Source: Emiliania huxleyi CCMP1516
Taxonomy: Eukaryota
DNA length: 64,000 nt
Assembly (NCBI RefSeq): GCF_000372725.1
Contig: NW_005201287.1
Span: 202,986-266,985, forward strand
Direction of reading: 5' to 3'
In this document: piece after piece, positions 13,613-63,886 of the stretch
Numbering within the stretch: the stretch's first letter is position 1
Layout: the number at the start of each line of letters is the position of its first letter
The notes under the pieces: model-generated
Seen by the model: the letters and a program-made list of their open reading frames with translations, nothing else
Told to the model about the DNA's origin: nothing
Database searches by the model: none
Program-made: the position numbers and the translations under genes

Positions 13613-14899
13613 ATGCACGCCCGGGGGGCGCAGCGCCTCCACAGCGCCGGGCTGCTCTTCGGTGCCTTCCTCTGGCTCGCTAGGGGAGCGATAGCGCTCA
13701 CGCACGCCCCGATCGGCGCCGCCGCCGCCAGACGGGCGCAGCGGGCGAGGTGCGCCGCAGTCGAGGGCGGCGGCGGGCAGCTGCTGCGCGCGCCCACAGG
13801 CTGGGCGCCGCGGAGGGGAGGCGGCGCGCGGATGCCGTTCGGCGCGCCAAAGGTGGCGTACAAGGTGCCCGAGACGACGAGCGACGACTGGGTGCAGGTT
13901 GGAGCTCGGCCCCACCACCGTCGTCTCCTCCTCCGCCTCATGCCGCCTCCGCTGCTCTGCTCGCCTTCCTTCAGAGTCCGCCCGCCGGCCCACCGCCGCA
14001 GGCCAACGAGCCGCTCTACCGCGAGCGGCTCGTCTTCCTGGGGCAGGAGATCGACGACTACGTGTGCAACCAGTGCATCTCGTCGCTGCTGTTTGCCGAT
14101 GCCGAGGACAGCAGCGAGCCACTCTTCCTCTACATCAACTCGCCCGGAGGGTCGGTGATCGCGGGGCTCGCGCTGTACGACACGATGCAGCACATCGACT
14201 CGGACGTGCTCACCTGCAATATCGGGATGGCCGCATCGATGGCACGCCTCGCCCCGCCTCCGCGCACTCCTGCCCACGAGAAGGACTTGTCCGGGACATG
14301 TCCGGGACATGTCCGGGACGTGTCCGATGGCGCACGTCGCCTTGCTCTCTCGTGTCCGGGACTTCTCCACACGCCCCCTCCCCTCCCGCGACAGGCGTCC
14401 TTCATCCTGGGCGCGGGCGAGCGGGGCAAGCGGACGGCGTTTCCAACTCTCTCGCGCGTGACCTGCTCCGATGTCTTTTCTACGCAGGGGCGCCTCTCTC
14501 TTTGTAGGCGCTTCCGAGCTCGCGCGTGATGGTGCACCAGCCGATGGGGGGGTCCGAGGGGCAGGCGGAGGACGTCCGTGTGGAGGCGGAGCAGATCATC
14601 AAGATCAAAGGCGCATCGAGTCTAGATGCCCGAGTGACGTGGGAGCCAAGCACCAGCGGGCCCCTCCCGGTTGGTCTTCGCCCGAGCCCTTCTGCCGGAG
14701 GGACGGGAGGCCCGGCGAGGCTGCTCACGCCGCGGCGGTGCCGTGGTCAGGCACGCTGGTCACCATGTACTCGCACATGACGGGGCGCACGCGCGAGCAA
14801 ATCGTGGCCGACTTCGAGGGCGGAGACAATTACATGTCGGCGGAGCAGGCGCTCGAGTACGGCCTCATCGACCGCATCATCGGCCCTACGCACGACTGA
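13613..14899 (+). CDS. clpP: ATP-dependent Clp protease proteolytic subunit, nucleus-encoded and probably plastid-targeted; 4 introns
   Basis: MPFGAPKV, ERLVFLGQEID, LYINSPGGSV, GMAASM|ASFIL (catalytic Ser), VMVHQP (His), DNYMSAEQALEYGLID; hydrophobic signal followed by an Arg/Ala-rich transit-like peptide. Confidence 0.93.
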
Positions 14900-15614
14900 C
14901 TCCGCGGGAGGACACGCATCGTCCACGCCGTGCAGCCCTCAGCTCTTGCCTCTCCCTTCGGCTAGGCTTGGCCAGTCGGAGTCGCCCCACAGGCCTCTGC
15001 TGAGAAGCTGATTCAAAACTGGCAACTGGAACTGCTCTCTGCTGTCGTACCTGTGGTGCACTTTACTGCTTAGCGACCTGAGCGGGCGGCGCGTTACGCT
15101 GCGTGTCTCGGCACTATTCGCGCGGACGTCCAAAAACAAACAATCTTCTTCCCGAGACGCCTCCACATTCTATCAGACTCGCGTATTGTGTCTCAGAGGT
15201 CGCATCGCTTATACTCGGCAAACGCTTTTCCTTTGGTGCCCCCGCTCGGTGCGGTGATCTGACACCCCTCTCCCCCTCCCCTTTCTCTGTCCGCTCGCCA
15301 TGGCCCACGCGCCGCCTCATCGGGCGGCACGGGGCGGATGGCCCTCCTCCACATGCGCTGCGCGCCGGCCGCCGCCGCACAGGGCTGTCGAAGAGCGGCT
15401 GCCATCCTCCATTAGGTGTGCGCTGCTGGTGCGGGCTACTGCAGCGTACAGCCCTGCTGTGCGCCGTGGACCGTGCCGACGAGGAAGCCCTTCCAGAGCT
15501 TCCTCGCGCCTGTGCGGGTGGGGGGGGAGGGGGGAGGGGGGGCGTGAGCGGGGCGCGGCGGGCGGTGCGGGCGGGAGAGAGAAGAGAAGGGGAGGAAGGG
15601 AGAAAGAGAATAGA

Positions 15615-19708: not shown

Positions 19709-19769
19709 ATCAGAGCCTCACATTACAAGAAAAAGAAATCGGCGGTGGGGGCCGCCCGGCGCCGCACGG

Positions 19770-24642: not shown

Positions 24643-24930
24643 ATGAGGCTCCTCATAACGCTCATCCCGCTTCTCGCCGCGGCGGCGACCGCCGAGGAGG
24701 CGGAGGCCGTCGGTCCCGTCATCGGCATCGACCTCGGCACCACCTATTCCTGCGTCGGAGTCTACCGGAAGGGCAAGGTGGAGATCATCGCCAACGAGCA
24801 GGGGAACCGAGTGACGCCGTCGTGGGTGGCGTTCACCGACGACGGCGAGCGGCTGGTCGGCGACGCCGCGCGCTCGCAGTCCTCGCTCAACCCGGTAAAC
24901 ACGATTTACGACGCGAAGCGGCTCATCGGC
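24643..24930 (+). pseudogene. BiP: 5' fragment of ER Hsp70 (BiP), truncated by an insertion
   Basis: Signal peptide, [43 protein letters not shown]; no downstream Hsp70 exons seen in the window. Confidence 0.85.
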
Positions 24931-25996: not shown

Positions 25997-26087
25997 TTGC
26001 CGACATTTTTGCCCCCCATTTTTGGCCATATTTTGCCTCAGTGCACCGTGGACAAATGGTGCCGCTCAGAGCTCAGTCACTGGATTC

Positions 26088-28548
26088 TCAGATGTGTCTC
26101 CTGTATGAATCGTCCCAGCGCCGTGCAGCTGCGGACGGAGGCTCGGCACGGCCGAGAGGTGGCGATCCGTCATGACTGTCTACCCTGGGCCTGGCCAACT
26201 CCCCACCTCGACTGCCCGCCGGCGCGGCCCGGCGCCTGCGCGGCTGTGCCGTCGCGGCGCTCCCGCCACGCGAGGAGGAGAGCGAGCACCTGCGGCCGGT
26301 TGTGGGCCCGCGCCTCGTCGAGCGGCGTCGCGCCGCACGAGTCGCGCGCCTGACTCCGGAGAGGGGGGGGGGGGGGGCTTGTGAGGCGACGTGACCCGAC
26401 ACCAGGGTAGCCCTCGAGAGAGAGACCAACTCAGCCGCCTCGACTGCCGCGCCGCGCTGCAGCAGCCGCAACGCGACGTCCTCCATGCCTGCTCACACTG
26501 CGAGCCGTGAAGCTCGCCTCTCCCCACCCGCCTCCTCCACGGCCACGCCCGAGTCCGCGCCGTGCGCCGCAGCGAGGTGCAGCAGAGTGGTGCGCTGCCT
26601 ACATCGCAGCCAACGGGCGCGTCGCGCGTGTAGCGGCGGAGGCGGCGGTGGCGGCGCTCGGGGCGGTGCTGCGCCAGCGCGGGTGGAAACGCGGGACGAG
26701 GCGGTTGAGAGCGGTCGGGGACATCCAGCGCAGGATCTCGTGCCTGCCGGGGGAGGGGGAGGGGGAAAGGGGGGAGGGGGGGGGGGGGGTTGGCTGGCGG
26801 GTGAGCGAGGTGGTAGTTGGGCGAGGGAGGCGAGGGGGCGAGGGCGAGGGCGACGACGGGGCACGTGCCAGCGACGATGTGTCGGCTATATGCTGGCTGC
26901 ATGCCGGCTACGTCTCGGCTGTATCTCGGCTGTATCTCTGCTGTATCTCGGCACGCGCCGGCGGCTCGCGGCTCGCATGCGCGCGCAAGTGGCGGCGATC
27001 GAGGAGAGGGACGCGGCGGCGGCCTCGGCAGCCTCCTTGGCGGCGGCGGGGTCGGCGGGGCGCGGCAGCTGCCCTCCCACGCCCTGCTCGGAGCCGCCGC
27101 CGCCGCCGGCGGCGGCGGCGGCGGCGGCGGGATCGTGGGAGGTGGAAGCGGCCGCTGCAAGCGTGGCGGCGGTTGATGAGGCGCAGCCACCTATGCAGGG
27201 GGGAGGGGGGTGAAGAGGGGTTGCGGTTCGCGGACCCAGCGCGGTGGCGCAGGAGGGCGTTGCCGTGCGAGGAGGAAGAGGACGAGCAGGGCGAGCAGGA
27301 GGAGCAGGAGCAGGAGGAGGAGGAGGAGGGGAGGCAGCGCGAGGGGCGTGGCGAGTCCGGCGCCAGAGAAGCGAGAATCATGTCGAGCGCCTCCTGTCGG
27401 ACATGCCCGGGACGCGTCAGGGACGTGTCATCGAACGAGAGGGGGAGATCAGGCCGAGGTCTCCTCGGGAAGTCTGTCGATGCCGCAAGCACTCTCCGCC
27501 TCCGCCTCCGCCTCTGCCTCTGCCACCCTCGCCTCCGCCGCAGCCGCCGCCTCCGCGCCGCTCCCGCACGCCTTGGGCTCAAGAGAGCAAACGGCAACGT
27601 TGGTGGCAGCGCCGCCGGCAACGGAGACGCCGCCGCCGCCGGCGGCGGCGGCGGCGGCGGAGGCGGCAGCGGAGGCGGCAGCGGCGGCGGCAGCGGCGGC
27701 GGCGGCGGCGGAGGCGCGTGCGTCCGAAGCGGCGTGGCTCAGTCGCGGCGGCGAGGCGTGCGTGTCGCCGCGAGATCCGCAGTCGCGCCTCTTCCCGGAC
27801 AGGGAGCGGTCCCGCTCGTCGAGGAGCGCGAGGGCCTAGGGAGGGGTCTAGGACGGGTCTAGGAGGGGCCCAGGAAGGGCCCCGCTCAGCCGCAGCGCGG
27901 GGGCCGCGGCGCGGTTATTGTGCAGCAGCGCCGCCGCGAGCGGGCAACGCCCCTCTCCATCCCTCAAGTGCGGCGGCGCGCCTACAATGTCCAGGAGAGG
28001 TCCAGCACGGCTCTAGGAGGGGTGCTCTCATGTCGCGCAGGTGCGGCGGCGCCCTCGCGCAGCAGCAGCTGCACCACCGACGCATCGGCGTTGGCAGTCG
28101 CGCGGTGCAGCACCGTGGCACCGCCTCTCTCGCGCGTCATCTTGGCGCCGCGGCGCAGCAGCCGGTCGACCACGCTGGCGGAGCGGTACCGCGACGCGAG
28201 CAGCAGCGCCGTCGACCCGTCCGCCGCCGCCGCCGCGTTGACGTCGCAGCGAGGGCTCGCGAGGAGCAGCGTGAGCAGCTGGCCGCTGATGCAGCCGCGC
28301 ATGAGCGCGGTGAAGCCGGCGCTGTCAGGTGCATTGACGGGCGCCCACCCCTCGCGAAGCGCCGCTTGCACTGCCGAGTGCGCACCGCGCCGCACCGCCG
28401 CATGCCACCGTTCGAGCCGCTGCAGCTCCTCTTGCGGCGTCTGCGGCACGCGGATGGGTGCACTCGAGTGGCGGACGATGGCGAGGTCGCCGTCCTCTCC
28501 GGAGGAGCGTGATCTTCGCGCCAGCGTGATGGCCTCCGAGTGACGCAT
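26088..28548 (-). CDS. Multi-exon ankyrin-repeat protein (3' end uncertain)
   Basis: VNAPDSAGFTALMRG, DGSTALLLAS, GATVLHRA, spliced GAPPHLRDGEGRCPLAAA, later TTLLHLAAAHG; intron at 27982-28052. Confidence 0.72.
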
Positions 28549-29057
28549 GTGCTGTCGGGGTGGGTCGATGCTGGGACGAAAGTGACTTTTGACGCCCCAA
28601 TGTTTTCTTTTTATAAAGGATTTGTTAGAAAGAACCGAACGACACTGGGCACGGGACTGGCGCGCACTGGCACTAACACAGGTACACAGAGAAATTTAGT
28701 TGAATAGGAAGGTGAAGAACAGCCAGGCTCGGACTGGACACCAACGCGGTATGGGTGGACGCTAGACAGACGATGACGACACGCATGAGCGACACACAGA
28801 CACAAACAGGCTCACAAGACACACAGTAAATTTCTCGTAAATTTTACCTTAGGGCGCGGCAACCGGCAGCTTAGCCCAGCCGGAGGCCCCGGAGATTAAG
28901 AAACCAGGACGGGGTGAGGTAGTGGAGGGGTTCTCTTTATTCGTGAGGTGTGTGCAATCGTTCAAAGTGGAGATCGTTCAAAGTTCAATATGTAACGAAC
29001 GCAATATCGAAACGAACTCCCGCAGGGGTTGCCCCAACGTCCCGCGCCGGGGCAAGC

Positions 29058-29741
29058 ATGCGCGAGGGCACTCTGGGACGCAAGCACGAGATGCGCCCCG
29101 CGGGAGCTGCGCGCCGCGAGTCCAGCGGTAGCGTCGGCGAACTTTTGCAGGCTTTACCCGCCTCGACCTTTGGCCCATCCCACGCTGCCTACACCTCGTG
29201 GAAGCGGCACGGCCACCCCACCTCGGAAGAGGCGCCCTCGACACACGTCTTTGGCACCGCGACGCGGGCCGACGGCCTCAGCACGAAAGATCTTCTATAC
29301 TGCTCCAGCGAGGGTTCGCCGCCGCCGCCGCCGCAGCGGCTGCCTCAGACGACCGACGTCAACATCCTGACCTGGAGCAACGCGCCGCAGGAGCCACCGC
29401 GCCGCAGGCCCGACCTTGACGAGGCGGCGGCAGAGCAGGAATCACTCCGCCAGGCAGCCGCAGCTAGATCTCCCGCGCCCACCGCCCGGCGCGCCGACAG
29501 GACGGAGCCAGACCTGGACGAGCTCGCAAGGAAGTACAATGACCGCAAGCGCGGCTCGCCAGTCTCGGTCTCAAGCTGCCTGGTGCACATGCCAATTAGC
29601 GCCGAACGACCGCCCAAGAGCCCGCCGCCGCTCGTATCTATGCACTCAATCGGGCTTGCCTCGGCGCCGCACGCGGGGGTCGACGCGTACCACCCCCGAA
29701 GCCAGAGTTTCTCCTCCACTTTTGTGGACCCATATGACTGA
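29058..29741 (+). CDS. Hypothetical protein, 227 aa
   Basis: Uninterrupted ORF with protein-like composition; no recognised domain. Confidence 0.5.
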   Translation: MREGTLGRKHEMRPAGAARRESSGSVGELLQALPASTFGPSHAAYTSWKRHGHPTSEEAPSTHVFGTATRADGLSTKDLLYCSSEGSPPPPPQRLPQTTDVNILTWSNAPQEPPRRRPDLDEAAAEQESLRQAAAARSPAPTARRADRTEPDLDELARKYNDRKRGSPVSVSSCLVHMPISAERPPKSPPPLVSMHSIGLASAPHAGVDAYHPRSQSFSSTFVDPYD

Positions 29742-30364
29742 CAGGCTGAGGCATCTCGGGCCGGCCCGGGCAGCATCTGTGTTGAATTGGCGAGTAGTGG
29801 CTGTACACCAATCGGGCATATGGACAGCAGGCACCTGAACGGTTGCCACGCTCCATGGGGCAGGCGGGAATCCCGGGCCTCAAACGCACCATCAGGAGGG
29901 AAAGGAGGGTCGTGGCGGTGGTGAGGGCCGAGGCTGGTGGCGAGGCTGGTGGCGGCCAGGCTGGTGGCGGCCAGGCTGGTGGCGGCCAGGTGGGTGATGG
30001 CGGCGAGGTTGGTTGGGTTGTTGGGTTGGGTGGCGAAGCGGCGAGGCTCCAGCCGGCGGCGGCGCTCGCCAAGATAAATAAAAATGAAAACGGACGTCGG
30101 AGCTCGGACCACACACGCGAGACTCGCGCTCAGTCAGGCGTTGCCCCTCTTCTCCTCGCCTCTGCGGACTGCGCGGTCGACCCTCGCCTTGTGCTTGGTA
30201 GCTGAGTAGGAGTCCGTTCTCCTTATAACGTGAACGACTCAAACACGAGCGCGTCAGGTCCAGGCGCGCGAGTCTTTGGGGAAGTGCTGCCCCGCTCTCG
30301 GTCTCGCAACACATGCTGAGATCCAGCTGCCCCACCGCCCCGCGGTCCATCCCACCCCACCCCG

Positions 30365-31193
30365 TCACGCCCCCCTGCCCCGCCCGCCGCCGCGCCCTCC
30401 GCCGCGCCCTCCGCCGCGCCCTCCGCCTCGCCCTCCGCGCCCTCGCCCTCCCTCCTGCTGCCTCCCCTCCGAGACGTTGATGGCGCGGCCCTGCAGCATG
30501 TGACCGTTGAGCGCCTCCACCGCCGCCGCCCCCTCCTCCGCGATCTCCATGTTGACGAAGGCGAAGCCGCGCGAGCGCCCGTCCTGCGGAGACAAGTCTG
30601 GGGACGGGTCATAGAGAGGTCGCTGCTCGCACGCTGCGACGGGGGAGGCTGCTCCCTCGGGCGTGGGCCGCAGCGGCACGCGCGGGGGTCGTCGGCAGGA
30701 AGGTTCTGAGAAGTCTACCCCGCGCCTCATCCGTCATCACGTTGACGTGCACCACGTTGCCGTACTCTCCGAAGAGGTCGGCGAGCTCCTCCTCGACGAC
30801 GCCGAAGGGCAGGTTGCCCACGTACGCGCGGAACGCCGCGCGCGCCTCCGCCGGCTTCCCCGCCGCCATCCGGTCCTTCATCTCTTGCGGGTACTCGACC
30901 AGCTCCATGTCCTCGGGCAGCCGCGCGAGCCGTGCGACCGACTGAAACCACTCGTGGTCGCAGTTGGAGCAGCGGACCCGCTTGCCCGCGCCGGGGCCCA
31001 GCGCGTCCTCCTCGACACTGTACGACGCCTTGCAGTTGGAGCATGTGATGACGCACGGCCGCTCACCGACCGCCGCTGCGCCCTGCATGGCGGGCGAGCC
31101 GGCCGTGCGCGGAGCGAGGCCGGCGGCGCGGAGCGGCGCCGCGGCCCGCGGCGAGAGACTGAGCGACAGCAGGGCGGCGAGCGAGACCAGCAT
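30365..31193 (-). CDS. Zinc-ribbon (CxxC..CxxC, MJ0042-like) + RRM + RGG-tail protein, probably plastid-targeted; intron at 30584-30725
   Basis: ITCSNCKASY...RVRCSNCDHEWF; RNP2 AYVGNL; RNP1 RGFAFVNM; GGRG repeats; N-terminal signal and transit-like peptide. Confidence 0.88.
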
Positions 31194-31471
31194 CTGGAGG
31201 GGGGCTTTCCGGTTTGGCGCAACCGCGAGCCAAACGTGGGGGGGGGGGCCGCGGCGAGGAGCGCCCAAGCGGCAGCTGCTGAACGAGCTCAAGGTGTGGT
31301 TTCTTTTGGCTCGTTTTCTCAGACCTACCCTACCTACCCCCGGCATCAGGTCCGCCAAAGCAAAAAAAAGAATACGGGTGAGCTCGGATTTTTCGCCGCC
31401 TCATTCAGCCGCGCGCTTGTTGGTCCTAGCCACATCCCCCCGCCGGCAGTGCTCCTCCTGTGCCTTCCAGA

Positions 31472-33510
31472 ATGGAGACGCAGCAACTCGCCACCACGCC
31501 CGCACGGCGCAGGCATCCGCGGCTGGCGCTGCTCGGCGCGGTGGTGGCCGCTGTGGGCCTCCTCCTCGTCGTTGGCAGCGCTGGTGGCCGCCAATTGCTC
31601 TTTGAGGAGGCGGGCGAGGAGTACGGTCTGCTCGACTTTATGGGCGAGACACGCGTGCGCAGCTTCATGGGCGGACATCGCGTCCCGCTCTCCGAGGCGA
31701 CGCCGGCCTCGGACCTCATCGAGCTGCCGAAGGGCTGCCACTTGCGCACTGGCCTGATGACCACGGCGCTCAACATCTTCATCGACGACTTTCTAAGAGG
31801 GGGGCCGTGGCCGCGGCCGGCGGGGAGGCCGTCGCGCAAGCGGCTCGTCTCCCAGCTAGGCACCTCCCTCCTCCTCCACAACAAGACCTTCACCGGCAGC
31901 ACCGCCTCGCCTCGTCTCTGCGGCGCTGGCTGCCGCCTCCACCTCGCAGTGCTGTATCTGTGAGCAGGCATCGACATCGGCCACGTCGAGATCGGGACAT
32001 GCTGGATCCCGGGCCCCGAGGGCAACCGCCTCCTCCCCGACTTCCTCGCCGTCCACGTCACCGGCGTCCAACTCGCCTCTCCGCCTCGGCTGCTCCCTCG
32101 ACCCGCCCGGAACCTTCTCGGAGCCTTCCTGCAGGCATCAAGCTGGCCCTCCGCCTCAACTACACGCTCGAGCAGGCGCACCCGTGGGGCTCGGTCCAGC
32201 TCGGCGGCGGGACCATCGACACCACAGTGCAAGGCGACACACCAGCACCGCACCGCCCCTGAACCAAACCACTGCCGGCCCAACTCCTTCGCCTCTTCCC
32301 CGCACCTCTCCCCCGCACCTCTCCCCCGCACCTCTACCCCGCACCTCTCTCGCACCTCTATCCGTGCCCCTTCCGCACCTTTCCGCAGCAGCCGAGATCC
32401 CCCCGAGATTTCCCGAGACTAGGCGCCACCCTGATCAGCTACCGCGAGATCTCTCAGATCACACACCGAGATGACTCGAGATTGCCTAGGCGCCATCCTG
32501 ATCAACTACCTCGATCTGCACGACTTCAACAACACGATCAAGCACTGCGGAGGGCTGATGGGCACCTCCGAGCTGAAGGCACAGACGCAGCCGAGATGCA
32601 GACGAGATGCAGCCGAGATGCAGAGCAATGCGGCCGAGATGTCGTTGAGATACGCCGAGAGAGAGCCCCCCCCCCTTTCTGCCCCGCAGGTGCACGGGCT
32701 TCTCAACCTCGAGAAGGAGACGATGGAGGCGCCTCCCGCCCCTCCTCCCCCCCCCCCGTCTTATGGAGGTGTAATCCATCTCCCCTCACCCTCCCCTCAC
32801 CCTCCCCTCACTCTCCCCTCACCCTCCCCTCACCCTCCCCAGGCCGACGACCTCTCCGCCGACCAGACCTTCGTGCAGGAGCAGTGCAACGGGCCGAGCT
32901 ACTGGGACTACGGCCTCGGACCACGCCCGGACGGGCTGGTCGACGCCATCAACCACGAGGTGCGACGCTCCTTTTGGAAGGACTACGTGGCCCCGCCGCC
33001 CTCGCCTCCGCCGCCGTACTTGTGCGACTGCGAGTGGACGCTGGAGTCCGCCAAGCGTAGATGCGGAACACGAGAGGCAGCCGAGAGATACAGCCGAGAT
33101 ACAGCCGAGATGCAGCCGAGATGCAGCCGAGGTGCAGCCGAGATGCAGAACACCGGCCTGCCGCGTATTGCGAGTAGCCCTCGAGAGGCGAGGCGAGCTC
33201 GACGTCTGTTTAGCTGCCGCTGCGCTCGCTGCCCCCCTCGCACCCGCACCCGGACGCTCTCTCCTCTCGACGCAGGTTCGCCTGCCCGCACTCTGAGCCG
33301 CTGCAAACGGCAAAGACGTTCGCGGAGGACGACGGCTCGGCCTGCTTCGTGCACTGCTGCGTCGACCAGCACTACCGCGAGGTGTACGCGAGGCAGCCCG
33401 CGGCGGCGTCGTACGGCTCCTATTATGCAGGGGAGGAGGAGGGCGAGGAGGAGGCGGAGCAGGACGGCGAGGAGGAGGTCCAGGCTTCACGAGGGTGGTT
33501 TACCTTCTGA
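31472..33510 (+). CDS. Multi-exon type II membrane protein; possible BPI/TULIP-like beta region and Cys-rich, acidic C-terminus
   Basis: N-terminal TM LALLGAVVAAVGLLLVV; about 6 short introns splice in frame to ...EEEVQASRGWFTF*. The fold call is tentative. Confidence 0.65.
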
Positions 33511-43244: not shown

Positions 43245-44015
43245 ATGCAGATGACGGGCGGGGCGGCGAGTGGCGGGGGCGGCAAGGGCGGCGGCAAGGG
43301 CGGCGGCGGCGGCCCCGCGACGCTGTGCGGCGGCACTGTTGCCTGCTTCGACGCCGACGCCGACCACGTCTTGCTCTACACGCTCGGCAAGACGGCCTCC
43401 ACGTCGCTCGAGTTTGCGCTCGGGCCGTGGGTCGGGATGCGGAGGCTCCCGTGGATCACGACGCAGGCCACTGCCTTCCCGCGCGGCGCCAAGATCCACC
43501 GGCCGCAGGTCGCCAAGGCCTTCGTGAGCCAGCTGCCGCCGACGGGAAAGGTGTGGCTCTTTGTCACAGTACGCAACCCATTTGACCGCGCCATCTCGCA
43601 ATTCTTCGAGGGCTACGCCAAGTTCATGAACGTGACCAACTCGTCCGGGCCTGCCAAGCAGCACGACCACCTCTCCCGCTTCTCCCGCCTGGCACCCTTC
43701 CTCGCCGAAGGTATCGTCGACACGATCCCCAGCGTCATCGGCGCCAACGTCACCATCCCCCCGCTCTCACCCGTGACCAAGGATGCGTGGCTCGTGCACG
43801 GCCGTGTCCGAGTGCTGATCCTGCGGAGCGAGGACGCAAAGCTGTGGCCTAGCATCGTGTATCGCCGCACAGGCCGTTCGCTCGGCGAACTCGGCAAGTA
43901 CAATATCGGGATGAACAAGTGGTACGCGACGCTCTACCACAACTTCAAGGGGCGCTACACCTTCAAGACGAGGGTGGTCGCGCAGGCACCCCTCGAGCAC
44001 GGACCTGCGAGGTGA
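43245..44015 (+). CDS. Sulfotransferase-fold protein of the NKWYS (putative capsular polysaccharide synthesis) family; may be truncated
   Basis: LLYTLGKTASTSL (5'-PSB-like), VTVRNPFDRAISQFFE (3'-PB-like), ILRSED, NIGMNKWYATLYHNFK. Confidence 0.72.
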   Translation: MQMTGGAASGGGGKGGGKGGGGGPATLCGGTVACFDADADHVLLYTLGKTASTSLEFALGPWVGMRRLPWITTQATAFPRGAKIHRPQVAKAFVSQLPPTGKVWLFVTVRNPFDRAISQFFEGYAKFMNVTNSSGPAKQHDHLSRFSRLAPFLAEGIVDTIPSVIGANVTIPPLSPVTKDAWLVHGRVRVLILRSEDAKLWPSIVYRRTGRSLGELGKYNIGMNKWYATLYHNFKGRYTFKTRVVAQAPLEHGPAR

Positions 44016-44754
44016 TGCGAGCGGTGCCACTTACGCTGCCACCGTGAGCGTAGGTTCTCTCGAGCACGGAGCTCACGCGGCTCTACTCGGAGGAAGAGCG
44101 GAGCTGCATGGCTCTGCGCGCGCTGATGCCGCGCGCTGGCGCCGGTCTCGTGTCGTGCCATGACGAGAGCCCCGAGTGCGACGAGACTGGGGTCCCGTCG
44201 CGAGGGTGCGAGACAGTGCTATCTTCACATCAAATACCGTGGATAGGTACGAGGAGTATTGGTTCCCGTCGAGGGGGAGCCGCAGCCCGCAGAGCCGTGG
44301 CTCCACCCCTCCGAGTGGCTCGCTCGCTCCCCCGAGTCGGCGCTTCGCCCCCTCCTTGGGAGCGATGGGCGTGAGCAGCCTTTTCACAGCGCGTGTCGCG
44401 AGTAGGCTCGTGCCCGTGCGGGACCGCAAGGTGTGACTTGGTTGGCACCGCACTCGCGAGGAAGATAGGGGGTCAAGGCGTTCGCTATTTCGGTGGGCGT
44501 CGTCGACGACGACTTTCGAGAGCAACGGCCAACGCTTTGCGCAGCCGTCCGGTCTCCGGAGGCCCGCGAGCCAGAGACGCGGCGCCGTGCCGAGGCCGCG
44601 ATGCGCGAACGGAGATTTTTTGCGGCTCGCTCAGCAGCGCGCTTGGGGCGCGCCCTGGGACCGCTGTTGGCTGAGACAGACTGAGTTGCAACCCGCGATT
44701 ACACGTGCGGGGGGGGGGGGGGCATGTCGCCATGTGCGTCAACCAATTTACGCT

Positions 44755-47811: not shown

Positions 47812-49677
47812 CTAACCTGCTGCGACCCTCGCCAGCGCCATCTTGAGCGGGTGCTTCCCGTCGGGCGACGGGTAGTCTTGCTCGGGTGGCAGCACGGTGA
47901 CGTCTTCAAGCGGCCGGCCCGCCTTCTTGGCGCAACGCTCCAGGCTGTCCACCCACTCGTCCAGCTCGACCGACGCGACATGGTTCACGGCGAGGACCTG
48001 GCCGCTCAGCAGGGCGCGTGTGGGGAGAGGGCCAATCCTGTTCGCAGCGTGGCTCCTGTTCGCGGTCTCTCTTCCCTGCGCTGGGACAGCCGTGCACCGT
48101 GTGAAGCGCGATCAGCGTCAATGTGAGCAGCGTTCCTTCAACGCTCGAACCGCCGCCTGACTGCGCTCTAAGATTGTGCGGCGCCTGACTGCGCTCTAAG
48201 ATTGTGCGGCGCCTGACTGCGCTCTAAGACTGTGCGACGACTGCGCGCACCGTTCCGCCCGGCCGCGTCGCGAGCACACACGGCTTGAAGAGCGACTGGT
48301 AGTCCCTCACCAAGTCGACGGCGCCTGCAGGAAGTCTCCTAGAAAGCTGCTAGAAGGCTCCTCTGGAGGGCTCTTTAGCCCTCCGAATCGACGGCACCTG
48401 CAGCAGTCTTGGTCCACGTCGGCGGGTCGAGCACCTTCTCACAAGAGAGCTCCTAGAAGGCTCCCAGAAGGCCCCCAGAAGGCTGGTCCGCGCGGGCGGA
48501 GGTGGCACCACGACGTCGAACGCGCGCTGCCGCAGCCGCGGGGCGAGGCTGCTCGCGCCGCCTCCGCCTCTCCCGCTGGCCCTGCGATCCCCGCCCCGCC
48601 CGCCGCCGCGCCCTCGCCTAGGGTTGTGTAGACAAGGTCAGGGTGTGAGCACTGCATCGAGTGCCAGCTGGAGTCACGGGTCTGTTTCCAGCATCTAGGA
48701 GCCGTCGCCCGCCGCGCGAGCGCCGGTCTGTGTTGGTCGGCAGACCGGCCAGCTGGCGCAGCGCGGGAAGGGCATCGCCGCACACGCACTCGAACGCGCC
48801 GGCGGGCAAGCCTAGAGGCTCCCGTGGAGGCTGCGAGAGACCCCTTTTTTTGCACTCGAACGCGCCAACAGGCAGGCCATTCAGCCGCGCGTTCTCTCGC
48901 CCGACGTCGAGCGCCGACTGCGAAAAGTCGAGGTTCGTCACCTGCAGGAAGACTCCGAGACGCTTCCTGGAAGGTTCGTGAGGTAGACAGGATCAGTCGA
49001 GGGTCGTCACGTGTCGCGCTCCCCCCGCGAGCGCCGCCACGCCGGCACCGCACCTGTCAATGATCGATCAAGATTCATCGTGAAGAATCAATGGCATCGT
49101 CACGCCGGTGCCCGCACGTGAAGGCGAAAGCGTTGAGCACGTCCCTCCCCTCGCTGTTTGCAGCGAGCCAGCGGCGCGCCGCGCGAAAGTCGAGGTAGAG
49201 GTTCGGGTCGCGGCCGGGCGGAGGCACCTGCAGGGAGGCTCCGAGAAGGCTCCTAGAAGGGTCTCGCAGAGGCCTGGAGATGCGGCCAGGCGGACGCACG
49301 TCGATGCGGTACTTGAGGCCGATCTCGGAACCCACGTGCTCCGCAGCCAGCAGCGGCGCGCCCGGCGGCACGAGCACACCCTCGCGCGACCGCTGCCGCT
49401 TCTGCCGCGCATTCCAGTGCACGGCTCGCAGCGGCACGCCGGTCTCGTCCTCGACGAGGTCGCGCAGCCGCGGCAGCAGCTCCTGCGGGTCCATGTCTGG
49501 CGGATCGCGAAAGGTTTGCCAAAGGAGCAGGTCGCCGAAGCGCTCGAGGGTGCAGCCAGGCTCGCCCTCGGTGGCGCCGTGGAAGAGACGGTAGCAGTCG
49601 GTGCCCTCGGCGTGGAGCGAAGGGAGGAGCGTCTGCGAGCGGCTGGCCAGCGCGGCTCGGACAGAGTCGAGGAGCAT
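47812..49677 (-). CDS. Class I SAM-dependent methyltransferase, RlmI/RlmK-like; 8 introns (start may lie further upstream)
   Basis: YRLFHGATEG, NLYLDFRAARRW, VLNAFAFTCGAGVAAL.GGA, NLDFSQSAL..GRENARLN, FDVVVLDPP, DLVRDYQSL. Confidence 0.88.
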
Positions 49678-56926: not shown

Positions 56927-57443
56927 TCACCCCTTCTTCTTGGCCGCCGCGAGGCTCGCCTTAATGGAGGTGGACGAGCGGGCGTGCAGCCCCGCCTGCG
57001 GCGCGCGCTTCGCCACGACGTACTCGATGCCCCGCTCGGCGCACTGCTGCCGCTTGCTCGGCTGGTCGCCTGTTCACACCCTCGAGGCGTGAAGCGACGC
57101 TGTTCACGGCTGCCGCTGGCGAGTAAGCGTGTCGCCGTCGTGATTGACAAAGAAGATGTCCGGCTTCACCGCGTCGAGGTCTGCGCCTACAACGACACAC
57201 GACCACGGACACGTCCCGAGCGCGACCTCTTCCGCCCAGTCGCACCGCAGCGATTCCCGGGCGGCCCTGGTCGTGCCCCATGCCCCTGGCGACAAACGCG
57301 TGCGACACCCACCGGATCGCGCCAACCTCGGCGGGACAGAGTGATAAGAAGAGTAGGAACAGTAAGCAATAGTCATTATGAATGGTGACAGCTGACTAGG
57401 CTTGGCGAGTCCGCAAAGCTTCGCGGAGCTCTCATCCCTCTCT

Positions 57444-57510
<67 letters not shown>

Positions 57511-57879
57511 CCATGTACACCCGCTCAGCCTCTGGAAACATGGGCGCAGCCTTGAGGGCGGTGACGTTGGCGTCGTTGCCGACGGAGACGTGCAGCTCGC
57601 CCAGAGCGGCGGCCTAGTGCGTACCAGCGGGCATCAGAGCACTGAGAGCTGGCTTCGACCGCGACATGATGTGTTACGGATCACGGTACGGGTGGAGCGA
57701 GCCTCCTCGAAGAAGGCAACGTGGCCCGAGTGCAATAGGTCAAAACAGCCGGAGACGAAGACTCGCCGCCTTCGCCGCGGCCGCCGCCGCTGCGCGTGCG
57801 AGTGAGCGGTGAGCGCCAGCACGCCCAGCACGAACCCGGCGGCGGCAGGCGCGAACGATGAAAGCCACGAAGGCGGCAT
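56927..57879 (-). CDS. Cytidylyltransferase-like (HxGH, RfaE-II/TagD-type) protein with an N-terminal anchor; several introns
   Basis: RVFVSGCFDLLHSGHVAFFEE|AAALGELHVSVGND, FPEAERVYM, KPDIFFVNHDGD, RSSTSIK. Confidence 0.85.
57447..57506. repeat. Intronic (CT)n microsatellite
   Basis: Directly visible. Confidence 0.95.
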
Positions 57880-58927
57880 GGTCGGTGGAGGACAGCGCTA
57901 AGAAAAGAATTTTGAAAGGCGCTGCGCCTGCTCAGGGTGTGTGGCAGCCAGCTGGCTGTGTGTCTTGTGAGCTTGTTTGTGTCTGTGTGTCGCTCGTGCG
58001 TGTCGTCATCATCTGTCTAGCGTCCACCCATACCGCGTTGGTGTCCAGTCCGAGCCTGGCTGTTCTTCACCTTTCTACCTACCTACCTGCCTGCTACTTC
58101 TGAGCGCGCTCGCGAACATTACGGGGCCGCAGGAACGCGGGACTCGCAAATAAGCCCACAGCCACTTAAGCTGACGCATGGCTCTCATTTATTAAGTGTT
58201 CATTCAGGAGCATTCGCAATGCGTTCGTTCGGGGGCACGAGTGGAGGCGACGTTTGAGAGGGCGGTCGGGGAGGAGCAAAAAGTGGTGCTTCCAAAGAAG
58301 TAGTTTTCGGGATGAAGGCAGGCTTGATGAAGGCAGGCAGGCCACGTGTCTCCAACCGGCGATCCCTCGGCGCCCGCCGAGAGAAAAGGCCCCACGGCTG
58401 GCCATACACGCCACCGCCCCTCCGTCCGTTCCAATGGGTCTCTGCTCGTCGACTGCAAAGCCGGAGCCGCCCTCGCCCGTCGAGACGGTGATGCAGATGT
58501 ACAAGTCCTTTGGTGAGGGCGATATCGCCGCCATCCTCAAGGCGGGAGATCCGTTCAATACCAAACAACTCTAACACACTTTGTTTTTGGATTTTAGTAG
58601 CGAAAAGAAAAAAGAAAGGACTCGCACGCACTGGCACAAACAATTTCACCACAAAAGAAGAACGAAAGACCCCAGATCGGCATCCATGCCTTTCTGGACA
58701 GGGTGGCCCGCCACAACGACCCCTGGAATTGCAACTTTCCTCCCTTGATCCCTTAGCGTAAAAAAGAAACATTGGGTTTGTACTATTACAACGAAGGCGC
58801 TCTCAAAAAAGAAATAAAATCTGCTCGCCAGTCACCACGAAAAGAAGAAATAACCCAGGTCACAAAAAGCGATCGCTCCGAGTGTTGTGGCCGACCACTT
58901 TGGGTTGAGCCCGGACGGCGGCGCACA

Positions 58928-61900
58928 ATGGCGCCAGTGATCGCCTTGTTTGCAGCGCTTGTACAGGAATCGCCAAAATCAGCGTGTGGCCCCGTCAGCA
59001 GCTCCGAGAGCCGCAACTGCACCCAGCGGTGCCCGTCTGAGCTCTCCACTCTCTGCGACGCACACAAGGACGTCCCGGCGGCGCTACTCGGCTTTGAGGA
59101 GGACAGCCTGTGGATCCCGCGTCTGGATGAGTTCAACTCGTGCACTGGGTCCCGAATAACCCTCACCTACACCCTTCTGGGAGAGGACGGCATGGCAGAT
59201 GCGCTTGAGGCCGACTGTGGCACCGTCGCCCCGACGCCGTCAGAGGGCGCTGGCATCTACGACGGCTATGTGGTGCAAGCCCCGTGGGTTCCCAATGTGG
59301 AGCCGTTGCTTGAGAATCTGTCTCCGCGCATCGCCGCGACGCCAGAAATCGACTGGCTCGACATCAACCCCACCAGCCGCTCGATTGTCTCCTTCAGCAA
59401 TACGGCGCGCTGTCTCGCCCGCTCTCCTCTCCTCATGCCGAGTGCCAAGCTCACGGGTCGTGCCCGGCAGGTTCGCGCGCTGCCGCTCGACGTCGACTTC
59501 ATCGCGATCGGGTGGCGCGAGGACGTCTTTCGGCAGTGGCAGCCTGAGCTCGAGGCGATGGGCCTCTGGCCAGGTCCGCCGCGAATACCGGCAGGAAGCT
59601 CTGCGCTGCTCCCGTACATGCGCATCATAGATTCGGCGAGTGGATGTAGGCCCGCCAGAGACGCTAGAGGAGCTGGTCGCCGTCTCCGAGTTTCTCAAGG
59701 GCAAGGACCACAACGGCGACGGCATCGGCGACTGGGGCTTTTGCCTCACGCCGCAGCCAAACTACTTCACGGCCTTTCTGGCGCCGCTGATGATGAGAAA
59801 CGAGCAGGCGTGTGCATCCGGGGACTGCAGCGGGGACCGGACCGGCCAGAACCTCTTCTTCGACGTGCAGAGCTTCGAGACGACGGTCGGCAACGCCGCC
59901 TACATGCAGGTGCGCTGCCCCTCCCCGCCCCGCCCCGCACTGACCCCCTGAAAATCTGCCGTTGATAAGGAGATCAATGGATTGCGCGGTATTATGTATT
60001 CTCAATCCCTGTCTAGATCACTGATATGCTGGTGCGATACAGCTGTACCTCACTCTCACCCTCACTCTCCCCTCCCTCTCACCCTATCGACGCAGCCCTC
60101 CCGCCCCCCCCCACATAGGCGCTCCAACTCTTCCACCGCGTCCTGCGCGCCTCAAACTGCCCCGACCAGGCCGAGTCGGCGGACTGGGTGCCGCAAGCCC
60201 TGCGCGGCGACCCCCTGTTTTCCGGCGCCGGCAACAGCAAGTGCGACCGCAAGTCCGCCTTCGCGTCCGGCCGGTGCGCGGGCGTCATCTCGATGCCGGG
60301 CACGCTGACAAAGATGCTGACGGGCAAGTACACGCCGGTGACGCCGCAGTACCACGTCAACGCCTCGAGCGGCGAGAACACGACGTGGGCCCTGCCGGGG
60401 CATGACGCGGCGGACGGGTACTACTGGGGCCGCCGCGCCTTCTTCCCGGGCTCGGAGAAGGTGCTCGACCCTGCGACGGGAGGGCTGGTCGAGTGCACGC
60501 CCGACCTCTGCCCCAAGGCCGTCCGTCACAGCCGGACGGGCAAGCTGGTCGACCGAGTCCTCCTCTGCCTCTCGGAGCCTTCGAGGACCCTTCCAGGAAC
60601 CCTCTCATAGGCAAGCTGGTCAACCGAGCAACCTTCTTCTCTGAGGGGGGGGAGGCGTACGCGCTGCGCGCCTCCTCGCCCGAAGGCAAGAAGAAGGCCC
60701 TCTTCGACCTCTTCACGTGGTTCTCGGAGCTGCCCCCGTCCAAGGTGCCGCTGACCGGCCTCTACCGCCAATCGCAAGTGGCGAATGCTGCGTCTTCGGT
60801 AGCCGAGCTGGTCGAGGAGGGCTGGCCGCAGCAGGCTGCGGACGACCTCGTCGAGCTCCTCGCCGAGCTCTTCGACGAAGGCAGCAACGCGGCGCAGGAT
60901 CTGCTCCTGCTCGGCTTCAGCGACTACAACGAGCGGCTCGACCAGCGGCTGCTCGACGAGTTCCTGCTCACGCCGCCCTTCCTCACCGCACCCGAGGTCG
61001 ACGAGCTCGCGTTCGCCGCCGCGAGCGACGCGCTAGTCAGCCAGCTGCGGAGCGACTACGACGATGTGACCCGCGACTACGGGGGCGCGGCGGGGCAGGT
61101 GCAGCGGTGGCGCGCGTCGCTCAACCTGCTGCCCCTCTCGGCCGCGGCGCTGTGCGACGGCTTCTACGCCTCGCTCGACGAGGACGAGAAGCGCCGCTGC
61201 TCCGAGGACAACCTGCAGATCCTCGTGGCCACACTGTGTACGGTCGCCGGCTTGCTCGTGCTCGTGCTGCTCGTGCTCGGATGCCGCTCGATCCGGAGGG
61301 GAGTGAGGCGCAAGGCGGAGCTCGAGAGAGCCGCCGACGCGCTCGTGCGGCGGCAGGTGACGGACGCGATGGGCTACGTCAACGAGCTGCAGACTCCGAT
61401 GGTGCTGATGCGCGCCTCGGACTTCATGCGGCTCGGCGAGCTCCGCCCGCACGAGGAGCTGCGCGACGCGGGTGCGGTGGTCTTCGTCGACTCGGTGAGC
61501 GACCCCTTCTTGACGGAGCACCTGACCGTCTTCTTCTCGCACCAGTGGCTCGGCTACCAGGCGCCCGACCCCGACGCCGGGCCGGTGCACCAGCGCTCTC
61601 TCTCGCTGCCATGCCCAACCCCCCCCCTCCCCCCCTCCCCCCCCCCCCCCCCTCCTCCCCCCTCCTCCTCTTAGGCGCCCGACCCCGACGCCAAGCAGTT
61701 CCGCTCCATGTGCCGCGCGATCCTCGCGATCGGCGAGCGGGAGGGCGTCGCACCAGACGCCATCTACGTGTGGGTCGACTGGGTCTCCATCCCGCAGCGC
61801 GTCAAGAGCGTGCAACAGCTGTCGATCAGCTCGCTGCCCCTCTTCGCCTCGCTGCTGCACTGCTTCGTCGTCGTCACGCCCGAAGCGATGCACCACGAGA

Positions 61901-63886
61901 GCCGCCAGAGGTGCGACCGCTCCACCTTCCACTCGCGCTGCTGGTGCCGCGCCGAGGTGATGTCGCATTGGGCTCGCCGCGGCGCAGCGAACATGTACTA
62001 CGCCGATGAGGAGGGGCTGCAGCCGATGGCGCCCAAGGGGGTGGCCTCGGTGGCCGAGGAGGAGGACTTCCTCTCGTCTATCCACGTGTTCGAGGGAGAG
62101 CTCTCCTGCTGCGCGCTCGGCCACCCGGGCGGACGGCCGTGCGACCGCGAGCTGCTCGTCTTGCCCATCCTTGGGCTGTACGGCCAGATCTACGAGCAGG
62201 TGCGTTGCGGGCACCCACCTCGGCCAGTCTCGCCGGATCTCGCCTAATCTCGGCGAATCTCGGGCAGGTGGTGCACTGCGGGGACCCGGCCGCCGCGAAG
62301 GCGAGGGCGGAGGAGCAGCCGGAGGGCGAGTTGTCGCTGGCGACCGTCTCTCACTCAACGGACTCGACCATCGGGGGAGGAGGCGGCGGCGGAGGAGGAG
62401 CAGGAGGAGGAGGCGAGGCGGGCGGTGACCCGTACCCGATCTCGGAGCAATCTCGCTGCCCTCCGATGCGGTCCGAGATGCGGTCCGAGGCGAGGGGCGG
62501 CGGCCGGCACGCGAGGGCGTGCGACCAGTGCGACGAGGCCAACTCGCCGCACAAGGCGCTGCGCTTCAGCGGGGCCGAGACGGCGGGCGACCCTACGAGC
62601 GACGAGAGCCGCCGTCGCTCCTGCGCTTCTGACGACGTGGCGCGACGAGCCGTGCCCCCTTCGGCTCCGCACAGCCCTCCCGTTTCTGGACGCGCGGCCC
62701 TTCGCTTCTTAGGCGCGGGCAAGCGTGACTACACTCCTACGCACTCGACACTACAGCCAAGCAAGCCTTGGCGTAGGCGCACGCTCGCGTCATCTTCGAC
62801 ACGGTCCGCCCGCGCGTCAAGGCAAGCTGGCCTATGGCCACCGCTCCTCCTCCTCCTCCCTTGTGTGTCTCACACGGCACCGCTCTCCCTTGCGGCACAG
62901 GCAATCTTCCCGCGAACCTACGTCCACGTCTCCGCCGCCGGCAAGGAGGAGAGACCACTTTTCGGCGACCTCATCTCGGCCATCGAGTCCGAGATCGACG
63001 CGCGGGGCGGTGGTGGCGGCCGGCTGAGGCCAACCTTTGGCAGGTACCAGCCCGGTGCGAAGTACGCTGAGCCGCTCGACGCCGCCGCCACGCCGGGCGG
63101 TCGGCCACGCATGCACCGCCCCCCTTCGTCGATCGCGAGCAGCGTGACTTCGCCCTACAGCCGCCGCCGCTCCGCCTCGACGGGGCACGCTGTCGCCTTT
63201 GGCCTTGGCGAAGCGCGCGCCTCGCGCGGCGCACTCGCCGTTCTGCCCTCTGCTCCTCCCACCTGCAGCAGCCTTCTCGGAGCCGGGAGCCCCTCCTGTG
63301 TAGGCTCGCGCACCTCTGGCGACTCGACGGCCATGCACAAGTCATTGATTCGTTCGTAGCTCCTGTTCATAGGCTCGCGACACTCCGGCGACTCGTCGCC
63401 CAACCGGCGCTCCTTCCGCTCCTCGCTCTCGCGGCACGGCAGCGAGATCAGCGGCTCGGTCAGCTCTGGCGCTGTGCGGTTCCGCGAGTCGGCGCGGCAG
63501 GCGCTCGCGCTGAGTCGAGCGGGGGTGCTCTCGGGCGGCGGAGCGAGGCGGCAGGTGCCGCGCCGCTCGTAGCTCGGCTCATCTCGGCTCATCTCGGGCT
63601 ATCTCGGGCTATCTTGGCAGGTGCCGCCGCGCCACTCGACGGCAAGCTCGACGCCGTCCAGCGGGGGCGGCGCGAGGCGGGGCGCACCTTCGCAGGCGCA
63701 GATGAGTCGAGATGAGTTCCGAGGTGAGCCGAGGTGAGCCGAGGTGATGCCCCGCCACAGGCGTGGAGCTCCTCGCCCGCCGCGTCTCCCGCGAGGCCGA
63801 GGCGGCTCGGCTCGTTCACGGAGGACGAGGACGAGGGCGGCGGCGAGGAGGAGGGCGCTGTCGCCGCGCCGTCGCAGCTCGTGTGA
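58928..63886 (+). CDS. Single-pass receptor: signal peptide, type 2 periplasmic-binding-protein-like ectodomain, TM, cytoplasmic HET/TIR-like domain and disordered tail; about 11 introns
   Basis: YDGYVV..PW, LENLSP, ALPLDVD...REDVF, PPETLEEL (SBP); TM ILVATLCTVAGLLVLVLLVLG; FFSHQW, VWVDWVSIPQ, FHSRCWCRAE (HET). Introns 63304-63372, 63555-63620 and a further one at ~63696-63760 extend the frame to TGA at 63884-63886. Confidence 0.8.

What the first reader, a model, noticed from the sequence alone, without database searches (positions are those of the whole stretch)
13613..63886. 'Exon-echo' introns: intron 5' ends copy the start of the next exon in every multi-intron gene examined
Seen in sequence (intron start vs next-exon start): 61561-61674, gcgcccgaccccgacgcc in both (18/18); 60540-60610, gcaagctggtcgaccgag vs gcaagctggtcaaccgag (17/18); 63304-63372, gctcgcgcacctctggcgactcgacggcca vs gctcgcgacactccggcgactcgtcgccca; 63555-63620, gtgccgcgccgctcg vs gtgccgccgcgccactcg; ClpP 14437-14507, gcgtttccaactctctcgcgcgtga vs gcgcttccgagctcgcgcgtga. 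Similar cases occur in the ankyrin, cytidylyltransferase and 31.5-33.5 kb genes; some introns (ClpP intron 1, the RRM intron) echo only weakly. Some intron 3' ends also echo the upstream exon end (cctgtgtag vs cctgttcatag). Many echo introns are 66-72 nt long, and the donor dinucleotide usually equals the first two exon bases, which would account for the excess of GC donors. Inference: either large-scale intron gain by local duplication around a proto-splice site followed by minisatellite filling, or ongoing templated overwriting of intron ends from spliced transcript.
Basis: partly seen in the sequence, partly recalled or inferred. Interest (0 to 1): 0.9.

Follow-up and report, generated by a model that had tools for sequence, protein, structure and literature searches.

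The report
Algal introns echo the next exon
In the bloom-forming alga Emiliania huxleyi about half of the introns examined begin with a worn 15-35-base copy of the exon that follows them, likely the scar of insertions that duplicated an unusually long landing site, which would explain where many of its introns and part of its odd GC splice signals came from.

Summary
Real. The window is Emiliania huxleyi (ClpP identical). RNA contigs skip 17 introns; their 5' ends match their own downstream exon far better than swapped or codon-shuffled exons (p<=2e-4). 16 of 34 window introns echo clearly, as do 13 of 22 echo-blind metagenome sites. Typical anatomy is ~25-35 nt echo plus ~40 nt of 10-11-mer filler ending in AG, 64-79 nt in all. 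There is no general 3' echo (p=0.55), and only 3 of 16 echo introns follow an AG, so plain tandem duplication fails. A ClpP intron shared with 7 relatives has no echo; three echo introns show no break in 80-131 relatives; one echo keeps a likely ancestral codon. Best reading: intron gain by insertion with a long target-site duplication that supplies the donor; cDNA overwriting is unlikely. Same logic as dinoflagellate introners (4-8 nt duplications) and Daphnia break-repair introns (4-12 nt), but much longer. Published supplements list small E. huxleyi introner families without this feature; the scan noted single similar introns in other genomes.

The parts
14437..14507 (+). ClpP intron 3, 71 nt, GC-AG; ~25-nt gapped echo; no break at this site in 80 spanning relatives
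14242..14394 (+). ClpP intron 2, 153 nt, GC-AG; no echo at donor; position shared with 7 relatives (old-intron control); holds an internal copy of its own exon end plus donor 88 nt in
13898..14001 (+). ClpP intron 1, 104 nt, no echo
14611..14750 (+). ClpP intron 4, 140 nt, no echo, no break in 77 spanning relatives
27836..27904 (-). ankyrin-gene intron, 69 nt, ~34-nt echo plus 11-mer filler
   Evidence: RNA joint in X10
27982..28052 (-). ankyrin-gene intron, 71 nt, echo with 2-nt offset
   Evidence: RNA joint in X10
30584..30725 (-). RRM/zinc-ribbon gene intron, 142 nt, no echo
   Evidence: RNA joint in three runs
32064..32134 (+). 71-nt GC-AG intron, ~38-nt echo (74%), filler of the commonest 11-mer family
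   Evidence: RNA joint in four runs
32234..32489 (+). 256-nt intron whose last 67 nt (32423-32489) are a nested unit: TAG, 25-nt echo, filler, TAG
   Evidence: RNA joint in four runs
43986..44053 (+). predicted 68-nt GC-AG intron with ~21-nt echo; not RNA-tested and not in the statistics
47812..49677 (-). SAM-methyltransferase-like gene (362 aa) with 8 introns, 7 echoing: 49228-49299, 49054-49117, 48942-49010, 48812-48877, 48618-48723, 48435-48508, 48325-48397; 47998-48250 weak
   Evidence: open frame; colinear with homologs over all 8 junctions; same introns in L005/L016; not RNA-tested
57070..57135 (-). cytidylyltransferase-like gene, predicted 66-nt intron, ~31-nt echo
   Evidence: not RNA-tested
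59405..59470 (+). 66-nt GC-AG intron, weak offset echo
   Evidence: RNA joint in two runs
60540..60610 (+). 71-nt GC-AG intron, echo 17/18 fading to ~30 nt, 11-mer filler
   Evidence: RNA joint in X10
61561..61674 (+). 114-nt GC-AG intron, echo 18/18 (24/30), C-rich filler
   Evidence: RNA joint in two runs
62200..62267 (+). 68-nt GT-AG intron, weak gapped echo, ATCTCGG-type filler
   Evidence: RNA joint in two runs
63229..63372 (+). two adjacent intron-like units, 63229-63303 (75 nt, in frame) and 63304-63372 (69 nt, echo 24/30) meeting at TAG|GC; the second is removed in RNA, the first probably only in part of the transcripts
   Evidence: tables 2, 3, 8
63555..63620 (+). 66-nt GT-AG intron, echo with 3-nt gap, ATCTCGG-type filler
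   Evidence: RNA joint in two runs

Best explanation
About half of these introns consist of a decayed 15-37-nt copy of the following exon's start plus about 40 nt of unrelated filler ending in AG, and they likely arose as insertions into exons that duplicated a long target site. Shown: the anatomy, the splicing, the one-sidedness, the 64-79-nt size peak, donors matching the exon start, neutral GC-biased decay of the copy, and lack of the echo in the one intron shown to be old. Inferred: two nicks on opposite strands some 15-37 nt apart are repaired by fill-in, and a ~40-nt patch is joined between the two copies. If the duplicated stretch begins with GC, GT or rarely GA, and the patch ends in a usable YAG, splicing removes one copy plus the patch and the mRNA is unchanged, so only such events survive in exons. 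Events whose duplication overlaps an existing acceptor or donor are absorbed as nested units. Afterwards the copy decays, 10-11-nt repeats spread through the intron and lengthen it, and the echo fades. Inferred too: at least part of the patches are copied from a shared pool of 10-11-mer repeats (one family recurs in unrelated genes, once in reverse orientation). The enzyme is not identified, and I cannot tell a mobile element from a repair patch.
For: Echo above controls. Annotation-free scan of YAG|G sites: score >=12 at lag 55-89 in 54 of 1237, against 7 of 1221 and 6 of 1194 at longer lags. Identity above null to nt 31-35, then background; median echo 25 nt, filler 42.5 nt in 38 short introns. 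Filler matches neither upstream nor downstream exon (p=0.16, 0.59). All 34 downstream exons start with G, 33 with GY. Introns <=80 nt echo more than longer ones (11.4 vs 5.4, p=4e-4). Mismatches even over codon positions (51/287, 51/278, 43/281) and biased to G/C (69/245 vs 43/601). Age test: ClpP intron 2 shared by 7 relatives, no echo; echo introns unbroken in 80 of 80, 126 of 126 and 131 of 132 informative relatives (the one exception is an ORF starting at the junction Met). Fumarase echo keeps Thr. Csuros 2011 found no detectable intron conservation for E. huxleyi (passages). Filler autocorrelation peaks at 10-11 nt. Fumarase intron L012:1489-1562 carries the common filler reversed between 32-35-nt repeats and is spliced in a transcript protein.
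Against: No empty site was found: DNA runs X2 and X3 and loci L005/L016 carry the same introns as the window. 18 of 34 introns show no clear echo, including ClpP intron 4, which also seems lineage-specific. The age test rests on one old intron and three echo introns; many homologs are transcript-derived and cannot show introns, and the relatives are unnamed. The same test on the methyltransferase was inconclusive (low-identity ends within 3 residues of several junctions). Some fillers look younger or more constrained than their echo (32064: echo 74%, last 25 nt identical to unrelated genes), so today's filler may not be the original insert. Echo identity does not track filler AT content (rho -0.08). 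Lag 60-79 repeats are nearly absent between genes (1 in 34.2 kb vs 13 in 15.8 kb of multi-intron genes), which random breaks do not explain by themselves. A G at exon position +1 also occurs behind the old intron, so it may partly be a spliceosome requirement.
Confidence: 0.72

Rival explanations
1. Ongoing overwriting: cDNA of spliced mRNA invades at the upstream exon end and overwrites the first 15-35 nt of existing introns with the next exon's start (abortive intron loss); only GY-starting exons keep a donor.
For: Explains the exact register, the restriction to genes and donor concordance.
Against: The old ClpP intron 2 has a GC-starting exon but no echo. A fumarase echo keeps the likely ancestral Thr codon. 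No reciprocal 3' echo although 15 of 34 upstream exons end in AG. It does not explain the size peak, nested acceptor-plus-echo units or the reversed filler in L012.
Confidence: 0.07
2. Classical tandem duplication of a ~70-nt exon segment containing AG|GY (Rogers/Hellsten model), with the 3' half later replaced by minisatellite.
For: Direct repeat at intron-length spacing; fillers turn over; exact 66-nt tandem copies of whole units exist (L019).
Against: Needs AG before the donor: 3 of 16 clear echo introns. No trace of upstream exon in the filler, even where the echo is 28/29 (L025:2410-2479) or 14/14 (L006) and the filler is 86-97% AT.
Confidence: 0.07
3. Convergence without common descent: selection on donors (GYGC) and GC-rich composition, or splicing signals that favour intron starts resembling exon starts.
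For: Donor consensus and exon starts are both GYGC-like; swapped pairs already score above zero.
Against: Permutation keeps these biases and the signal stays (within-gene p=2e-5; nt 7-20 p=0.004); matches of 28/29 and 18/18 are locus-specific.
Confidence: 0.02
4. Target-primed reverse transcription of the free 3' tail of excised intron lariats (or of a LINE/SINE tail) inserts ~40 nt ending at AG with a long duplication: a specific RNA-based version of the best explanation.
For: Filler length near a branch-point-to-AG distance (own knowledge); conservation highest at the 3' end (partly forced by the search pattern); in L012 the reversed filler's AG end abuts the repeat within 3 nt; restriction to genes.
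Against: Reversed ATCTCGG-type fillers do not start with CTG/CTA (listing); AT-rich one-off fillers have no visible source (no match in viral contigs); no reverse transcriptase was linked.
Confidence: 0.12

Closest known systems
Introner-like elements of Symbiodinium and Polarella glacialis, classes 4/5 and 6/8/10 (Roy et al., bioRxiv 10.1101/2020.10.14.339549; parts 1-2 of 4 read)
   Same: The donor (GT/GC/GA) is the 5' end of the duplicated target, the insert gives the 3' splice site, some classes work in either orientation, and exons start with GH.
   Different: There the duplication is 4 or 8 nt and fixed, and the Symbiodinium elements have inverted repeats. Here it is 14-37 nt and variable, the insert is ~40 nt of 10-11-mers from several families, mostly without terminal inverted repeats.
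E. huxleyi introner families in Gozashti et al. 2022 (PMC9860276, supplementary rows) and 2025 (PMC12130899, supplementary rows)
   Same: Same species; five families in 2022 (653 copies; average lengths 70 and 37 nt); in 2025 a 5-member ~70-nt family called 'co-opt 5' carry 3'' with a note of 10-bp terminal direct repeats.
   Different: Duplication status is '?' or N in 2022 and 2-4 nt in 2025, mechanism unknown; neither main text has 'Emiliania'. The ~30-nt exon copy and its presence in about half the introns are not stated in the rows seen. I did not see the family sequences, so overlap with my filler families is untested.
Daphnia neo-introns from staggered double-strand-break repair (Li et al. 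2014, PMC4202315, passages; review PMC3443670, passages)
   Same: Insert plus a direct repeat shared between one intron end and the adjacent exon; internal repeats; unknown source of the insert.
   Different: Repeats are 4-12 bp in 33 of 90 introns and inserts are AT-rich. Here repeats are about three times longer, always on the donor side, and fillers recur between genes.
Tandem genomic duplication of an AGGT segment (Rogers model; review PMC3443670, passages)
   Same: Intron start copies the downstream exon start.
   Different: It requires AG|GT at both ends and an intron 3' part copied from the upstream exon; both fail here.
Direct repeats near intron borders (Rogers and Bendich 2025, PMC11782384, passages)
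   Same: Reads border repeats as insertion scars; intron-5'/exon-3' pairing is one of its classes.
   Different: Mean 11.4 bp, hand-picked within 80 bp with a uniform null; no mention of Emiliania or haptophytes.

Membership tests
Introner (donor co-opted from target-site duplication) | Donor is the first bases of a duplicated target; insert supplies the AG | tested here: met
   Echo starts at intron nt 1; 27 of 33 GY/GY concordant; filler unrelated to exons
Introner (donor co-opted from target-site duplication) | Family of similar sequences in unrelated genes | tested here: inconclusive
   Met for the last 25-40 nt of one family (33 sites) and a second family (6 of 46), but 17 of 46 fillers are singletons and the search pattern fixed the last 22 nt
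Introner (donor co-opted from target-site duplication) | Short fixed duplication of 3-9 nt | tested here: not met
   Median 25 nt, quartiles 19-32; above null to nt 31-35
Introner (donor co-opted from target-site duplication) | Terminal inverted repeats (present in many, not all families) | tested here: not met
   No conserved 5' end in the commonest family; only weak self-complementarity (4.96 vs 4.41, p=0.006); inverted ends seen in 2 cases (L012:1489, L025:2410)
Introner (donor co-opted from target-site duplication) | Empty sites in strains or close species | tested here: inconclusive
   None in DNA runs X2, X3 or loci L005/L016; absent in distant relatives for 3 echo introns
Introner (donor co-opted from target-site duplication) | Autonomous partner or mobilising enzyme | not testable with these tools
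   No whole genome held
Break-repair neo-intron (Daphnia type) | Direct repeat shared by one intron end and the adjacent exon | tested here: met
Break-repair neo-intron (Daphnia type) | Repeat 4-12 bp and AT-rich unique insert | tested here: not met
   Repeats 14-37 nt; AT >=0.85 in 2 of 41 fillers
Tandem genomic duplication (AGGT model) | AG before the donor and intron 3' part copied from the upstream exon | tested here: not met
   3 of 16 clear echo introns follow AG; no 3' echo

The most novel reading that the evidence does not exclude
Introns beget introns through their own spliced-out tails: a host enzyme copies the ~40-nt free tail of excised lariats into staggered cuts about three helical turns (~31 nt) apart inside active genes, so the new intron inherits its acceptor from an old intron and its donor from the duplicated exon, and this one process built most of the E. 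huxleyi intron set and its GC-donor majority.
Probability: 0.12. Interest if true: 0.93.

Novelty: new variant of a known kind. Interest (0 to 1): 0.76.

Why it matters
Where new introns come from is a long-standing question because most leave no trace. Here about half of the introns examined carry a locus-specific scar that marks the insertion site and, through its decay, a rough age, so gain rate, site choice, phase bias and growth after birth can be measured genome-wide from one assembly plus RNA. It offers a testable cause for part of the 56% GC and 4% GA donors reported for this species, which Feldmesser et al. 2014 put down to GC content. The duplication is about three to eight times longer than those in the introner and Daphnia papers read, which points to an unrecognised cutting or repair geometry. 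In practice the echo predicts splice sites where public models fail (the RefSeq fumarase loses residues at both echo introns).

Tried and rejected
Whole-genome test: no genome held. Filler pattern in viral and prokaryote contigs: 0 hits; one AT-rich filler in viral contigs: 0 hits. Homolog search with methyltransferase exon 1: none; the deeper search found 191, but the shared-position test there was inconclusive. 'Young introns have AT-rich filler': not supported overall (rho -0.08, p=0.6, n=41); the two most AT-rich fillers do have 97-100% echoes, a post hoc remark. 'Filler is a discrete element with inverted ends': not general. 'L007 holds three echoes of one exon': on rereading, three tandem ~70-nt units whose exon/intron status is unresolved. 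ClpP intron 1 shared with relatives: three ORFs start near it, but GTG start calls explain two, so not counted. No presence/absence difference in DNA runs X2, X3; the joined-form look-up was not given. Rfam scan of the window: 0. Pfam on 7 exons of the two orphan genes: 0. Left out of the statistics: the unresolved 3' introns of the ankyrin gene, cytidylyltransferase 57187-57511 (frame not resolved), the 43.0-44.1 kb gene; 6 duplicate metagenome sites (28 to 22); 63229-63372 was scored as one intron, which lowers the signal. The fumarase tree is a quick tree only. Literature: 10 searches showed no paper describing this echo; the 2013 E. huxleyi genome paper was not held, 2 supplementary files of PMC12130899 were not searched, the PMC9860276 file was cut when stored, and bioRxiv supplements are closed.
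Full report
IDENTITY. The window is GC-rich eukaryotic DNA. My four-intron ClpP model equals the E. huxleyi CCMP1516 Clp protein letter for letter (272 aa). The metagenome loci used below come from the same species: L012 fumarase is 98% identical to the E. huxleyi protein, and L005/L016 are alleles of the window's 47.8-49.7 kb gene.

ARE THE SEGMENTS INTRONS? RNA contigs laid on 57520-64000 and 26000-33700 show 17 joints that resolve to one GT-AG or GC-AG intron each; both joint tables were cut (31 and 4 rows not shown). DNA runs X2 and X3 run through the introns of the first stretch, so they are neither assembly errors nor absent there. I added 3 introns placed from RNA piece ends and frame, and 14 from gene models: 4 in ClpP (confirmed by P0139 and P0140; Pfam positions continuous), 8 in a SAM-methyltransferase-like gene (open 362-aa frame, colinear with homologs) and 2 in a cytidylyltransferase-like gene (least secure).

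IS THE ECHO MORE THAN CHANCE? For the 17 RNA introns the anchored alignment score of intron start against own exon is 8.12, against swapped exons 3.78 (p=1e-5, floor); nt 7-20 alone give p=0.004; codon shuffles of the same exon give 5.56 against 8.06 of 18 (p=2e-4). For all 34, within-gene permutation gives p=2e-5 and 16 of 34 pass the 95th percentile. An echo-blind sample was drawn by searching metagenomes for a 22-nt intron 3' end: 28 loci, 22 distinct sites, one of them the window's own locus. Mean score 14.55 vs 8.45 (p=1e-5), 13 of 22 above the 95th percentile, best spacing 69-77 nt in 15 of 22. An annotation-free scan of YAG|G sites in window plus loci found 54 of 1237 at lag 55-89 against 7 of 1221 and 6 of 1194 at longer lags.

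ANATOMY. Identity stays above null to nt 31-35 and then drops. In 38 short echo introns the aligned echo has median 25 nt (quartiles 19-32) and the rest 42.5 nt (39-53). The rest does not resemble either exon, has a 10-11-nt period and falls into one large family (21 of 46, inflated by the search pattern), an ATCTCGG family (6), a pair and 17 singletons. There is no 3' echo, and 3 of 16 clear echo introns follow an AG. All 34 downstream exons begin with G and 33 with GY; donor and exon start agree in 27 of 33. L021 and L025 hold predicted GA-starting cases; GA donors are reported at 4% in this species. Echo-exon mismatches are even over codon positions and go mostly from exon A/T to echo G/C (frames for loci were inferred), as expected of a released copy decaying under GC bias. 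Introns over 80 nt echo less (5.4 vs 11.4). Nested units occur: acceptor plus echo inside 32234-32489, at 63304, in L026 and L019, and exon end plus donor inside ClpP intron 2.

AGE. Several protein entries are unspliced ORF calls on genomic contigs (E. huxleyi read-throughs P0004, P0138, P0159 show this), so introns appear as breaks. Of 86 ClpP proteins at 58-93% aligned identity, 8 break exactly at intron 2; one is E. huxleyi's own read-through, leaving 7 relatives, all running into a GT start. That intron has no echo. At echo intron 3 none of 80 spanning proteins breaks, nor do 126 and 131 at the two fumarase echo introns. Relatives on contigs of 5-869 kb lie in the same supported clade of a quick tree. 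Many entries are transcripts and cannot show introns, and n is small. The fumarase echo has ACG (Thr) where the exon has GCC (Ala) and 92 of 103 homologs have Thr: an old copy, not a fresh one (single case). Csuros et al. report no detectable intron conservation for E. huxleyi.

MECHANISM. The simplest account is insertion with a long target-site duplication: exon1 | copy + patch...AG | copy + rest. The donor is whatever dinucleotide begins the copy. GC outnumbers GT 381:118 in window exons, against 22:12 among donors, so co-option plus some preference for GT fits; the old ClpP intron shows that GT-to-GC conversion also occurs. Staggered nicks with fill-in are inferred, not shown. Whether the patch is a mobile unit, a templated repair patch or new synthesis is open. 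For a shared template: near-identical 33-36-nt ends in unrelated genes and a reversed copy in L012. Against a single element: several families, singletons, two very AT-rich fillers, no general inverted ends. That echo (~31), filler (~42) and sum (~73) are near 3, 4 and 7 helical turns is a remark only. Unexplained: near absence of such repeats between genes and fillers better conserved than their echoes.

COMPARISON. It works like Symbiodinium and Polarella introner classes whose 4- or 8-nt duplication supplies a GH donor and like Daphnia staggered-break introns with 4-12-bp repeats, but it fails the short-duplication feature of both. Gozashti et al. list small E. huxleyi introner families of 70 and 37 nt with undetermined duplication and unknown mechanism in supplements, so introner-like repeats in this species are on record. 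In 10 paper searches I found no description of the long exon copy or its frequency; the 2013 genome paper could not be read. Earlier notes of this scan describe single introns of similar build in other genomes; they are unchecked leads.

VERDICT. Observation real and wider than the window; two details corrected. New variant of a known kind. Interest 0.76.

Noticed in passing
window 63229-63372 and 32234-32489: Nested units create TAG|GC junctions that are acceptor and donor at once, candidates for recursive splicing; at 63229-63303 a 75-nt in-frame intron-like unit seems often retained (bin depth).
   Followed up: partly
window ~1-1400 and ~4600-6010: Long inverted repeats holding arrays of the same 10-11-mers as in intron fillers (11-mer x12, 10-mer x33): a possible reservoir of filler templates.
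   Followed up: no
L025:2410-2479 and L006:1727-1795 (-): Near-perfect echoes (28/29, 14/14) with 86-97% AT fillers in a GC-rich genome; the first is palindromic with an 11-nt period. Best candidates for very young, polymorphic introns.
   Followed up: partly
L021:1306-1375; L025:3657-3723 (-): Predicted GA-AG introns whose GA donor equals the start of the next exon.
   Followed up: partly
L019:1-133 and L007:653-863: Whole echo-plus-filler units repeated head to tail (66-73 nt), suggesting slippage between echo and exon; the reverse event would delete the intron precisely.
   Followed up: no
window 59405-59470: This intron differs at about 9 sites between the window and runs X2/X3, whereas introns of the 47.8-49.7 kb gene differ little from L005/L016.
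   Followed up: no
L012 / protein P0001: The RefSeq E. huxleyi fumarase model drops residues at both GC-donor echo introns; the transcript protein P0002 has them.
   Followed up: yes
window 601-700: A 69-nt-spaced repeat outside genes whose spacer is largely the reverse complement of the repeat (fold-back copy).
   Followed up: no
window 24645-24930: HSP70/BiP-like 5' fragment that stops abruptly before repeat DNA (read from sequence, not searched).
   Followed up: no
window 37000-41830 (-): Long apparently intron-free gene with 495-bp tandem repeats and a duplicated ~780-bp block, with a codon style unlike its neighbours.
   Followed up: no
L012:2226-2290; window 32780-32842, 60048-60085: Some intron repeats resemble degenerate telomere repeats (recalled motif CCCTAA); not tested.
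   Followed up: no
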